DNA of 64,000 nt. It comes from the human T2T-CHM13v2.0 reference genome, Homo sapiens. Position numbers and translations under genes: made by a program. Below the pieces are notes generated by a model. That model was not told the DNA's origin. It searched no databases and saw nothing but the letters and a program-made list of their open reading frames with translations. Of this stretch, positions 16,906 through 19,900 are shown piece by piece (position 1 is the first letter of the stretch; each line of letters begins with the position of its first letter). The stretch lies in NCBI RefSeq assembly GCF_009914755.1, contig NC_060945.1; one strand, 5' to 3'.

Positions 16906-19900
16906 CAATCACTTGTCACTTGACGGGGATACATTCTGAGAAATATGCCATTAGGCAATTTCATCACATACTTACACAAACCTAGTGGTGTAGCCTACTA
17001 CATACCTAGGCTGTATGGCATAGCTTATTGCTTCTAGGCTACAAACCTATACGGCATGTTACTGTACTGAATACTGTAGCACTTGTAACACAATGGTATC
17101 TGTATCTAAACATAGAAAAGATACAGTAAAAATACAGCATAAAAGCTTTAAAAATGGTGCACCTGTATAGGACACTTACCAGGAATGGAGCTTACAGGAC
17201 TGGAGGTTGCTCTGGGTGAGTCAGTGAGTGAGTGGTAAGTGAATATGAAGGCCTAGGATATTACTGTACACTGCTGTAGATTTTATAAACAACTGTACAC
17301 TTAGGCTACACTAAATGTTTAAACATATTTCTTTCTTCAATAATAAATAGCTTACTATAACTTTACTTTATAAGCTTTCTTATTTTTTAAAACTTTTTTG
17401 TTGTTATTGTTTTGTTTTGTTTTTGTTTTTTGAGATGGAGTCTCACTCTGTCACCCAGTCTGGAGTGCAGTGGCGCGATCTCAGCTCACTGCAACCTCCA
17501 CCTCCCAGGTTCAAGCAATGAGACAGAGTCTCACTCTATCCCCAGGCTGGAGTGCAGTGGCGTGATCTCAGCTCACTGCAACCTCTGCCTCCCAGGTTCA
17601 AGCAATCCTCCCACCTCAGCTTCCCAAGTAGCTGGGATTATAAGCGTGCACCACCATGCCCAGTTAATGTTTGTATTTTTAGTAGAGATGATCCGCACAC
17701 CCCACAAGCTCCTGTGTTGGCCAGGCTGGTCTTGAACTCCTGACCTCAAGTAATCTGCCCACCTCGGCCTCCCAAAGTTCTGGGATTGCAGGCATGAGCC
17801 AACGTGCCCAGACATTTTTTAAAACTTCTTGACTTTTTTTTTTTTTTTTGAGACAGAGTTTTGCTCTTGTTGCCCAGGCTGGAGTGCAGTAGTGCAACCT
17901 CAGCTCACCGCAACCTCTGCATCCAGGGTTCAAGAAGTTCTCCTGCCTCAGCCTCCTGAGTAGCCGGGATTACAGGCATGCACCACCACGCCCAACTAAT
18001 TTTGTATTTTTAGTAAAGACAAGGTTTCTCCATGTTGGTCAAGGCAGTCGCAAACTCCCAACCTCAGGTCGTCCACCTGCCTCAGCCTCCCAAAGTATTG
18101 GGATTACAGGCGTGAGCCATCGTGCCCGGCATAACACTTTGCTTAAAAAAATACACATTTACAGCTGCACAAAAATATCTTCTATTTTTACCATTTTAAT
18201 TATTTTGTTTTACTTTTTAAACTTTAAAGCTAAGACACAAACACACACATCAGCCTAGGCCTACACAAGGTCAGGATTATCAGTGTCACTGTCTTCCACT
18301 TCCACATCTTGTCCCACTGGAAGGTCTTCAGGAAAAATAACAAACATGGAGCTATCATGTCCTATAAAAACAATATCTTTTTCTGGAATACCTCCTGAAG
18401 GACCTGCCTGAGGCTCTTATATACTTAACTTTTTTTTTTGTAAGTAAAAAGAGTGCGCTCTAAAATAACAGTAAAAAGTATAATATAGTATAGGCGTCCC
18501 CAACCACCTCCCACCCCTGCAGGAGGCAAGTGGCCAAAGGTAGACATTGTTCTCTCTCTTTTTTTAAGTTTATTTTTAAAATGTTAGAAGCCACAAAGCC
18601 AATAAATATGTAAAAAATATTCTATATACATTAGCTGATGTCTTAGTCCATTTGGGCTGCTACAACAAAATACCATTAATTGGGTGACTTATAAACAACA
18701 AATTTATTTCTCACAGCTCTGGATGCTGGGAAATCCAAGGTTAAGGCACTGGCAGATTTGTGTTCCGGTGAGGGTCTGCTTCCTGGTTCATAGATGGTAC
18801 CTTCTAGCTGAGTCCTCACATGGTGGAAGGGAGACAACTGTGGTTTCTTCAGCTTCTTACCAGGGCACTAATCCCATTCATAAGGGCTCCACCTTTGTGA
18901 CCTAGTCACATTCCAGCATCTCTACCTCCTCTGCTATCACACTGGGGATTAGTGTTTCAATATATACATTTGGGGGGAAGATAAATAGCTGGGCCTTAAC
19001 AACTGATGAGGCCTCACTAAATATGCGAGAAATAAGATAAAGCAGGGGTCCCCAACCTCCAGGCCACAGACTGGTACCAGTCAGTGGCCTGTTAGGAACC
19101 GAGCTGCACAAGAGGAGGTGAGCGGCGGGTGAGCAAACAAAGCTTCATCTGTATTTGCAGCCACTCTGCATCACTCGCATTACCACCTGAGCTCTGTCTC
19201 CTGTCAGATCTGCAGCAGCATTGGATTCTTACAGGAACACGAACCCTATTGTGAACTCTGCACATGAGGGATCTAGCTTGTGCACTCCTTATGAGAATCT
19301 AATGCCTGATGACCTGTCACTGTCTCCCATCACCCCCAGATGGGACCATCTGGTTGCAGGAAAACAAGCTGAGGGCTCCAACTGATTCTACATTATGGTG
19401 AATTGTATAATTATTTCATTATATATTACAATGTAATTATAATAGAAATAAAGTACACAGTAAATGTAATGCATTTGAATCATCCTCAAACCATCCTCCA
19501 CCCCCTAGTTCATGGAAAAATTGTCTTCTATGAAACCAGTCCCTGGTGTCAAAAAGGTTGGGGACTACTGGTATAGCAAATACATAAACCAGTAACATAG
19601 TCATTTATTATCATTATGGAGTTTTATGTGGTATATGTAATTGTATGTGCTATACTTTTATACCACTGAAACAGAGGTTTCTTAATACCAGCATCACCAC
19701 ACACATGAGTAATGTATTGTGCTACAGTATTATGATTGCTATGATGTCACTAGATGATAGGAATTTTTCAGCTCCATTGCAATCTTTTTTTTTTTTTTTT
19801 TTTGAAACAGAGTGTAGCTCTGTTGCCCAGGCTAGAGTGCAGTGGTGCAATCTCTGCCTCCAAGTTCAAGCGATTCTTGTGCCTCAGCCTCCTGAGGAGC

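What the first reader, a model, noticed from the sequence alone, without database searches (positions are those of the whole stretch)
18491..19570. Pack-type hAT transposon: MER1 ends captured about 0.5 kb of EPCIP-upstream DNA and copied it 38 kb away
Seen: about 18534-19570 is a diverged copy of about 56355-57364 (unique AT-rich DNA + MLT1A LTR + spacer + MER1A). At 56.8 kb the MER1A has a matched 8-bp TSD (agataagg/agataaag). At 19.0 kb it keeps only the left TSD (agataaag, 19035-19042) and homology ends exactly at the right TIR, so the 18.5-kb copy is the derived one. The whole block starts with a second MER1-like left end (taggcgtccccaacc...gcaggaggcaagtggc). It sits inside a Tigger3b element with its own 8-bp hAT-type TSD (atatagta/gtatagca). 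Known: hAT elements make 8-bp TSDs, hop locally, and can acquire host DNA by abortive gap repair (Pack-TIR elements). Inference: this is a rare primate example of DNA-transposon-mediated sequence capture, moving DNA from about 300 bp upstream of the EPCIP TSS into the antisense gene's first intron.
Basis: partly seen in the sequence, partly recalled or inferred. Interest (0 to 1): 0.8.

Follow-up and report, generated by a model that had tools for sequence, protein, structure and literature searches.

The report
Old transposon copy carrying captured neighbouring DNA
A 1,080-base insert bounded by cut-and-paste transposon ends carries a copy of a sister transposon and about 500 bases of the DNA beside it from 38 kb away, a real but already described kind of transposon-linked duplication with no shown function.

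Summary
Window 18534-19570 is a diverged copy of 56355-57364. Homology stops at the right end of a MER1A-type hAT element. The unique part occurs only at these two loci in the whole assembly.

The 1,080-bp block 18491-19570 interrupts a high-copy repeat. In 11 of 15 uninterrupted relatives the two flanks overlap by exactly 8 bp, which is an 8-bp target-site duplication. Its first 17 nt match the MER1A left terminus at 15 of 17 positions, exactly at the duplication edge. The 56.8-kb locus is the source, because its MER1A has both duplicated target sites.

"Moved as a Pack-type unit" is not shown. The composite is single-copy. Only 15-17 nt are a left end. The next 24 nt match the source element's 3' C-rich region.

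Flank divergence (11.0%) equals that of unrelated MER1A pairs at non-CpG sites (11.3%), so the event dates to the family's active era.

The best reading is in-situ break repair of a resident MER1-type element, using the cis MER1A as template and running into its flank. Such Pack-TIRs are published: 33 in human (PMC8277862). This locus is not in the held lists. It is a new member of a known kind, of modest interest.

The parts
18140..18490 (.).
   Evidence: 2771 first-look candidates, 40 scored at 78-82% identity
18483..18490 (+). Left 8-bp target-site duplication, ATATAGTA
   Evidence: Read. The family empty site is GTATAGTA, with exactly 8 bp of overlap in 11 of 15 uninterrupted copies
18491..18507 (+). 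MER1A-type left terminus remnant (TAGGCGTCCCCAACCAC), directly abutting the target-site duplication
   Evidence: 15 of 17 positions match the family left terminus (positions 2-18). 13 of 2000 shuffles reach the score anywhere in the consensus. Family left ends are visible
18497..18520 (+). Piece matching the 3' subterminal C-rich region of MER1A, best to the source copy (56.8-kb element, about 57279-57303). It overlaps the terminus through the shared TCCCCAACC
   Evidence: 23 of 24 positions plus one gap. Score 38 for the source copy versus 26 for the next best of 22 copies. 2 of 300 shuffles reach it
18521..18533 (+). 13 nt (AGGAGGCAAGTGG) of unexplained origin at the internal junction
   Evidence: No significant match in either element or in nearby DNA. 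The collinear left-end reading is not supported: 168 of 300 shuffles reach its score
18534..18640 (+). Copy of unique AT-rich DNA (source 56355-56461)
   Evidence: 15 of 105 mismatches. Only these two loci in the assembly
18641..18987 (+).
   Evidence: 6102 candidates. The source locus is 86% identical and all other scored copies are 79% or less
18988..19034 (+). Copy of the unique spacer next to the source MER1A
   Evidence: Only the source locus covers query positions 348-400
19035..19042 (+). Carried-over left target-site duplication of the source MER1A (AGATAAAG). It has no partner at 19571
19043..19570 (+). Full-length MER1A-type hAT element (528 nt) ending in the right terminal repeat
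   Evidence: 5607 candidates, scored copies 83-86% identical. The consensus of 20 fetched copies is 529 nt, the length listed for MER1A in PMC8277862 supplement file 6
19060..19091 (.). 32-nt subterminal palindrome (element positions 18-49). The left remnant's collinearity ends where this palindrome begins
   Evidence: Self inverted match at 93.75%. DNA hairpin of -16 kcal/mol, z = -2.65. The same hairpin occurs in family copy L070
19571..19578 (+). Right 8-bp target-site duplication, GTATAGCA
19571..19785 (.). Right half of the host interspersed repeat
   Evidence: 2317 candidates, 40 scored at 78-83%
56355..56831 (+). Source (parental) flank: unique DNA, LTR-like repeat and spacer, 420-896 bp upstream of the EPCIP start
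   Evidence: plus the gene table supplied with the finding
56832..56839 (+). Left target-site duplication of the source MER1A (AGATAAGG)
56840..57364 (+). Source MER1A-type element (525 nt, with private 19-bp deletion and 20-bp duplication)
   Evidence: 5025 candidates, scored copies 76-82% identical
57365..57372 (+). Right target-site duplication of the source MER1A (AGATAAAG)

Best explanation
A MER1/Charlie3-type hAT element once sat in the host repeat at 18.5 kb. It had made the 8-bp duplication GTATAGTA.

While the family was still young, that element broke close to its left end, at or next to its 32-nt subterminal palindrome. The break came either from transposase action or from fork stalling.

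The element-side end invaded the homologous MER1A 38 kb away on the same chromosome. Repair synthesis ran leftwards through that copy, out past its left terminus and its target-site duplication, and 501 bp further into unique flanking DNA.

The nascent strand was then joined to the remaining 15-17-nt left terminus. The junction is messy: 24 nt were copied from the template element's 3' region, bridged by the shared TCCCCAACC, and 13 nt are of unknown origin.

The product is a single-copy Pack-TIR-like composite that never amplified.

Shown: the anatomy, the insertion site, the direction of copying and the approximate age. Inferred: the resident element, the position of the break and the order of template switches.
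For: - The block is an insertion with an exact 8-bp duplication: 11 of 15 empty-site relatives overlap by exactly 8 bp. The central TA matches the family's target preference, and 18 of 20 family copies have 8-bp flanks matching at 6 of 8 positions or better.
- A true left terminus abuts the duplication, at 15 of 17 positions.
- The copy carries the source's left target-site duplication but not its right one. The source has both.
- The unique DNA is at two loci only.
- The junction piece matches the source's own 3' region best of 22 copies, score 38 versus 26. 2 of 300 shuffles reach this. This is as expected if that element was the synapsed template.
- The collinear terminus ends where the palindrome begins.
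- Age: flank divergence is 53 of 484 = 11.0%. Transversions are equal in the flank (19 of 484) and in the MER1A part (22 of 500). Unrelated MER1A pairs at non-CpG sites differ by 11.3% +/- 1.2.
- No junction-type mini-element family exists: 0 pattern hits, with 1+1 for the control.
- Published precedent: single-copy animal Pack-TIRs arise mostly by gap filling in a resident TIR element, with a bias to cis templates. In 91 of 97 primate cases the plain element sits at the orthologous site (PMC8277862, abstract, section 8 and passages).
Against: - No resident element can be demonstrated from one genome.
- The MER1A part of the copy is no closer to the source than to unrelated copies. A-B divergence is 18.0%, against a B-family mean of 17.4%. 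A and B share 7 non-consensus sites, against a mean of 8.9 for random pairs. The copy is not among the 40 scored hits of the source element. So neither a chimeric nor a fully copied element can be proved.
- The breakpoint at nt 17 of 529 is terminal. Tan et al. associate that with excision-induced repair, not with their usual internal breaks.
- 38 kb is farther than most published cis cases, which are mostly under 15 kb.
- 13 nt at the junction are unexplained.
- The same anatomy is produced by the rival models below.
Confidence: 0.5

Rival explanations
1. A Pack-type hAT element (MER1 ends plus captured DNA) formed at another site, or at the source itself. It then transposed as a unit, by local hopping, into the host repeat at 18.5 kb.
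For: - Both edges are family termini and are flanked by an 8-bp duplication with central TA.
- The age matches the family's active period.
- 38 kb fits the local hopping of hAT elements (established knowledge, recalled).
Against: - The composite is single-copy and there is no third locus holding the unique DNA.
- It needs an extra formation site and an extra transposition step.
- Only 15-17 nt of left end remain. That may be too little for transposase binding to subterminal sites (inference).
- Multicopy, transposition-dependent Pack-TIRs were found only in frogs and alligators among the reference genomes studied (PMC8277862).
Confidence: 0.2
2. A miniature composite insertion made by alternative transposition, as with maize Ac/fAc. 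A left and a right MER1A terminus from different chromatids or copies inserted together at 18.5 kb during S phase. The right terminus dragged the element and its flank into re-replication, the forks aborted, and the ends were joined.
For: - The right branch is exactly terminus + whole element + DNA beyond its other end. The left branch is a terminus that stops at the palindrome, a likely fork barrier.
- There is an 8-bp duplication.
- The internal junction is of the end-joining type.
- The mechanism is documented for a hAT element: composite insertions of transposon termini flanking duplicated flanking DNA, 8-bp duplication, 0-4 bp microhomology at junctions (PMC4270019, abstract and passages).
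- It needs only the one MER1A at 56.8 kb.
Against: - The mechanism is known only from maize and at a kilobase scale (14-23 kb). Here the left branch is 17 nt.
- The junction carries 37 nt of filler rather than a simple join.
- No associated duplication or deletion is detectable.
- The 3' region of the copy's MER1A looks less like the source than the junction piece does. This is a weak signal.
Confidence: 0.15
3. Two-element composite transposon. A second small MER1-type element once lay at the source boundary (56355). Its left end and the MER1A right end were mobilised together.
For: An 8-bp direct repeat TCCAAAGA lies at 56328-56335 and 56354-56361, the second copy sitting at the homology boundary. 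The base rate of such a repeat is 0.32% per position.
Against: - The repeat lacks the central TA seen in nearly all family target sites.
- The 18 nt between the two copies have no MER1 similarity.
- The copy does not carry the T that precedes CCAAAG.
- The 43 nt end without a recognisable right terminus.
- The source retains the DNA but no left end.
Confidence: 0.07
4. A transposon-independent origin: ordinary segmental duplication, templated insertion at a random break, or an RNA-mediated retro-DNA copy.
For: Retro-DNA copies of DNA transposons are reported in primates (PMC11195612; search listing and abstract start only).
Against: - Homology ends exactly at the terminal repeat.
- Both edges are family termini.
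- There is an exact 8-bp duplication with the family's target motif.
- There is no poly(A) tail.
Confidence: 0.03

Closest known systems
Animal Pack-TIRs (Tan et al. 2021, Nat Commun, PMC8277862), including human Pack-MER1A and Pack-MER1B cases
   Same: - Non-transposon DNA sits between two pieces of one TIR element.
- A parental copy is identifiable on the same chromosome.
- It is single-copy.
- The junction is messy or microhomology-bridged.
- It is hAT-based.
   Different: - The filler includes a complete second family member plus its flank and one half of its target-site duplication. Template choice was therefore homology-driven run-off rather than microhomology alone.
- The breakpoint is terminal (nt 17 of 529).
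- The event dates to the family's active era, whereas 22 of the 33 human cases post-date transposon activity.
- The parent is 38 kb away, versus mostly under 15 kb.
- The locus is not in the paper's lists: 'chr21' occurs 0 times in the 11 held supplement files. The supplementary PDF could not be read, and the relaxed set of 199 human cases is not listed.
Composite insertions from Ac/fAc alternative transposition with re-replication (Zhang, Zuo and Peterson 2014, eLife, PMC4270019)
   Same: - hAT termini at both edges.
- An 8-bp duplication.
- The interior is the element plus the donor DNA beyond its far end.
- The internal junction is made by end joining.
   Different: - The maize cases are 14-23 kb, were observed as they arose, and often come with tandem duplications.
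- Here the whole structure is 1,080 bp and ancient.
- One branch is only 17 nt, and the junction has 37 nt of filler.
Abortive gap repair forming Ds-type derivatives, and ectopic cis-templated P-element gap repair (recalled from the literature; not read here)
   Same: Interrupted synthesis-dependent repair at a cut-and-paste element, template switching, filler DNA, and a preference for templates in cis.
   Different: Those cases usually give internal deletions or short fillers. Here synthesis ran off the end of an ectopic copy and captured 509 bp of its flank.
Plant Pack-TYPE elements: Pack-MULE, Pack-CACTA, Pack-hAT (PMC8903248 and PMC6379663; search listing and abstract starts only)
   Same: Terminal repeats enclose captured host DNA.
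   Different: The plant elements are often multicopy, are shown to mobilise, and usually carry gene fragments. This one is single-copy, shows no evidence of mobility, and carries non-coding DNA.

Membership tests
hAT-superfamily insertion (MER1A / Charlie3 group) | 8-bp target-site duplication | tested here: met
   ATATAGTA / GTATAGCA. There is exactly 8 bp of overlap in 11 of 15 empty-site relatives. 18 of 20 family copies have 8-bp flanks matching at 6 of 8 or better.
hAT-superfamily insertion (MER1A / Charlie3 group) | Family terminal inverted repeats at both edges | tested here: met
   The left edge matches the terminus at 15 of 17 positions. The right edge is the intact right terminus of a 528-nt copy.
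hAT-superfamily insertion (MER1A / Charlie3 group) | Assignment to the named family MER1A by a repeat library (Dfam/Repbase) | not testable with these tools
   No repeat library is available. Indirect support: 5607 genomic candidates, and a 529-nt consensus of 20 copies equal to the MER1A length in PMC8277862 supplement file 6. The origin of MER1A from Charlie3 is taken from PMC5753468.
Pack-TIR, as defined operationally by Tan et al. 2021 | Internal non-TE sequence of 100-5000 bp between two pieces of the same TIR element, each covering at least 10 bp of a consensus terminus | tested here: met
   The left piece covers terminus positions 1-17. The right piece is full-length. The internal captured DNA is 18534-19042, 509 bp. 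The criteria are from the paper's Methods passage.
Pack-TIR, as defined operationally by Tan et al. 2021 | Unambiguous parental copy of the internal sequence elsewhere in the genome | tested here: met
   56355-56839 is the only other locus. The paper's identity cut-off for 'young' cases was not checked. This pair is 11% diverged.
   The composite is single-copy in the assembly. Cut-and-paste transposition would leave no donor copy, so this does not exclude a single move.
Composite insertion by alternative transposition | Each terminus is continuous with donor element and flank, with one internal end-joining or homologous junction | tested here: inconclusive
   The right branch fits. The left branch is collinear for only 17 nt and is followed by 37 nt of filler.
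Composite insertion by alternative transposition | Associated tandem duplication or reciprocal deletion, or twin-sector evidence | not testable with these tools
   This is an ancient fixed event in a single genome.
Ordinary segmental duplication | Homology boundaries unrelated to transposon termini | tested here: not met
   The right boundary is the terminal nucleotide of the element. The block is bounded by termini and an 8-bp duplication.

The most novel reading that the evidence does not exclude
The block may be a miniature composite insertion made by alternative (two-terminus) hAT transposition followed by re-replication and fork collapse at the element's subterminal palindrome. This is the maize Ac/fAc mechanism, preserved as a roughly 50-million-year-old fossil in a primate genome. 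If so, it would show that this transposase-driven route to flank duplication also operated in mammals. It would also separate this locus from the post-activity gap-filling origin reported for most primate Pack-TIRs.
Probability: 0.15. Interest if true: 0.55.

Novelty: new member of a known kind. Interest (0 to 1): 0.3.

Why it matters
It is a clean, fully dissectable fossil of transposon-linked sequence capture in the human genome. Both target-site duplications survive, along with the parental locus, the carried-over half duplication and a templated junction.

It shows homology-driven use of a nearby family member as the repair template, with run-off into that member's flank.

It adds a case that dates to the active era of hAT elements, in a catalogue where most human cases are younger than that.

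It also placed a copy of DNA from 420-904 bp upstream of the EPCIP start into intron 1 of the antisense lncRNA. No regulatory consequence is shown, and this kind of event is already described, so its wider importance is modest.

Tried and rejected
- **Collinear left end.** Reading all 43 nt at 18491-18533 as a diverged MER1A left end is rejected beyond nt 17: 168 of 300 shuffles reach the alignment score.
- **nhmmer.** A 20-copy family profile run over 18400-18640 found nothing. The fragments are too short, so this is uninformative.
- **Family with this left end.** The 38-nt pattern with up to 3 mismatches hit only itself. A degenerate junction motif had 0 hits, against 1+1 for the control. 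Both searches are insensitive to copies more than about 10% diverged.
- **Source-specific variants in the copy's MER1A.** Divergence and shared variants were examined by quarters and by thirds. No segment is closer to the source than unrelated copies are. The only rare shared variant is T at alignment column 16, present in 1 of 20 family copies. In-situ chimera and full copy therefore cannot be separated.
- **Inverted match of the junction.** CTGCAGGAGGCA matches an internal MER1A motif in inverted orientation at 12 of 12 positions plus one gap. 93 of 2000 shuffles reach this, so it is not relied on.
- **Footprint at the source boundary.** The TCCAAAGA repeat has a base rate of 0.32% per position, but it lacks the family's central TA target. 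It is treated as probably chance.
- **Retro-DNA and segmental duplication.** Both rejected.
- **Pace and Feschotte 2007.** Not held. The ~37-My end of transposon activity is taken only from the text of PMC8277862.
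Full report
**1. The observation**

Direct reading, a MAFFT alignment and a self-blast of the window confirm that 18534-19570 is a diverged copy of 56355-57364. blastn gives 80.3% over 1051 columns for 18534-19557 vs 56355-57355. 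It is the only long match of this region apart from Alu-type matches in the surrounding query and one 108-nt match of the LTR-like part (18639-18746 vs 21579-21469, 75.7%).

Homology starts at CCAAAG and ends at the last base of a roughly 528-nt element (...GGGGACTNCTG). Beyond that, the copy reads gtatagca... and the source reads agataaag....

At 56.8 kb the element is flanked by agataagg and agataaag. At 19.0 kb only the left agataaag is present (19035-19042). So the 56.8-kb locus, or its ancestor, is the source and the 18.5-kb block is derived.

**2. The block is an insertion with a hAT-type duplication**

Both flanks of the block (18140-18490 and 19571-19785) belong to one high-copy interspersed repeat: 2771 and 2317 first-look candidates, 40 scored each, at 78-83% identity.

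58 fetched loci matched at least one flank, and 49 of them contain both flanks. In the 15 where both alignments reach the junction, the results were:
- 11 overlap by exactly 8 bp (family sequence GTATAGTA);
- 2 overlap by 13 bp, explained by a GTATA tandem;
- 1 overlaps by 3 bp;
- 1 is 60 bp apart.

So 18491-19570 (1,080 bp) is an insertion flanked by ATATAGTA/GTATAGCA. The name Tigger3b for the host repeat could not be verified.

**3. What the parts are**

The right 528 nt (19043-19570) belong to a family with 5607 candidates, and the 40 scored copies are 83-86% identical. I fetched 20 full-length copies with 20-nt flanks.
- 18 of the 20 show 8-bp flanking duplications matching at 6 of 8 positions or better, nearly all with a central TA. 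Both duplications in the window share that central TA.
- Their consensus is 529 nt. This is the length listed for MER1A (hAT) in the supplement of PMC8277862.
- MER1A derives from Charlie3 according to PMC5753468.

A search with 18480-18640, which spans the unique part 18534-18640, had 2 of 2 candidates genome-wide: itself and the source.

The stretch 18641-~18987 is an old repeat with 6102 candidates. The source copy is 86% identical, while all other scored copies are 79% or less. Only the source extends through the spacer to position 400 of 402.

**4. The 43 nt at the left edge**

- Positions 18492-18508 match the family left terminus at 15 of 17 positions, in register with the duplication edge. 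13 of 2000 shuffles reach that score anywhere in the consensus.
- Beyond that, a collinear left-end reading fails: 168 of 300 shuffles do as well.
- Instead, 18497-18520 matches the variable C-rich 3' subterminal region of MER1A, and best of all the source element's own version. It matches at 23 of 24 positions plus one gap, score 38 against 26 for the next best of 22 copies. 2 of 300 shuffles reach this.
- This piece overlaps the terminus through the shared word TCCCCAACC.
- The last 13 nt (AGGAGGCAAGTGG) are unexplained.
- No family with this junction exists at the sensitivity available.
- The collinear terminus stops exactly where the element's 32-nt subterminal palindrome (positions 18-49) begins. 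The palindrome folds as a hairpin of -16 kcal/mol, z = -2.65, and is also present in family copy L070. The source element carries a 19-bp deletion right beside it.

**5. Age and relationship**

| Comparison | Divergence |
|---|---|
| Copy vs source, captured flank | 53 of 484 = 11.0% (K2P 0.12) |
| Copy vs source, MER1A part | 87 of 500 = 17.4% |
| Transversions, flank | 19 of 484 |
| Transversions, MER1A part | 22 of 500 |
| Copy vs source, MER1A part, inferred CpG columns removed | 60 of 433 = 13.9% |
| Source vs family, non-CpG, mean | 13.0% |
| Random family pairs, non-CpG | 11.3% +/- 1.2 |

The excess divergence in the MER1A part is all transitions.

The MER1A part of the copy is not detectably closer to the source than any unrelated copy is:
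- It is 18.0% from the source, versus a source-family mean of 17.4%.
- The two share 7 non-consensus sites, versus a mean of 8.9 for random pairs.
- No region departs from this pattern.
- The copy is not among the 40 scored hits of the source element.

By contrast, the old LTR-like part is specifically closest to the source.

Taken together, the capture happened when the source MER1A was newly inserted, that is, during the family's active period. With an assumed long-term rate of about 1.1-1.3e-9 per site per year (my own assumption), 0.06 per copy corresponds to roughly 45-55 million years.

The same data cannot tell whether the right part of the copy's MER1A came from the source or from a resident element.

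**6. Mechanism**

I favour in-situ repair of a resident MER1-type element (0.5). The break was near the left end, at the palindrome. The end invaded the cis MER1A 38 kb away, synthesis ran off into 509 bp of flank (including the carried-over target-site duplication), and the strand was joined to the 17-nt terminus through a templated, microhomology-bridged filler. Three things support this:
- It needs no extra site or step.
- It explains why the junction piece looks like the source.
- It matches the published conclusion that single-copy animal Pack-TIRs arise mostly by gap filling with a cis bias. In that study 91 of 97 primate cases have the plain element at the orthologous site (PMC8277862, abstract, section 8 and passages).

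The terminal breakpoint and the age suggest that the break was transposase- or excision-linked, rather than the later spontaneous breaks that paper emphasises.

Rivals:
- A miniature Ac/fAc-style composite insertion by alternative transposition and re-replication (0.15; PMC4270019 passages).
- A two-element composite transposon (0.07). This was prompted by the TCCAAAGA repeat at the source boundary, which however lacks the family's TA target.
- A transposon-independent origin (0.03).

**7. Comparison with what is known, and novelty**

Tan et al. 2021 report 370 Pack-TIRs in 100 animal genomes, 97 in primates and 33 in human (199 under relaxed criteria). These include MER1A- and MER1B-based cases. 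'chr21' occurs 0 times in the 11 held supplement files, none of which is cut. One supplementary PDF could not be read, and the relaxed set is not listed. So this locus appears to be unreported, but the kind is known.

Its particular features are:
- a whole second family member plus its half duplication inside the filler;
- a terminal breakpoint at a palindrome;
- an active-era date.

No function is shown. The source flank lies 420-904 bp upstream of the EPCIP start, and the copy lies in EPCIP-AS1 intron 1 (from the supplied gene table). No RefSeq functional element overlaps either copy.

**8. Verdict**

This is a new member of a known kind, with interest 0.3.

Noticed in passing
window 56328-56335 and 56354-56361: An exact 8-bp direct repeat, TCCAAAGA, with 18 nt between the copies. 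The second copy sits at the left boundary of the copied segment. The base rate of such a repeat is 0.32% per position. It lacks the central TA typical of MER1A target sites, so it is probably chance, but it could be a relic of an earlier insertion.
   Followed up: partly
window 19060-19091 (MER1A positions 18-49); also L070: A 32-nt near-perfect subterminal palindrome in MER1A that folds as a stable DNA hairpin. The left remnant at 18491-18507 ends where it begins, and the source element has a 19-bp deletion just after it. It may be a fragile site of this family.
   Followed up: partly
window 57020-57060 and about 56886: The source MER1A carries a private 20-bp tandem duplication (ctattgtgaac repeated) and a private 19-bp deletion relative to the copy and the family.
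   Followed up: no
window 56840-57364 searched genome-wide: Most of the best genomic matches to the source MER1A start at query position 46-49 rather than 1. This probably reflects the degenerate left 46 nt of this copy, or a related subfamily with a different left end.
   Followed up: no
window 18521-18533: 13 nt (AGGAGGCAAGTGG) at the internal junction have no identifiable template in either element or in nearby DNA.
   Followed up: yes
window 17834-18130 and 19785-20067: Alu-type elements (dozens of matches within the window) lie on both sides of the host repeat. The right one interrupts or abuts it.
   Followed up: no
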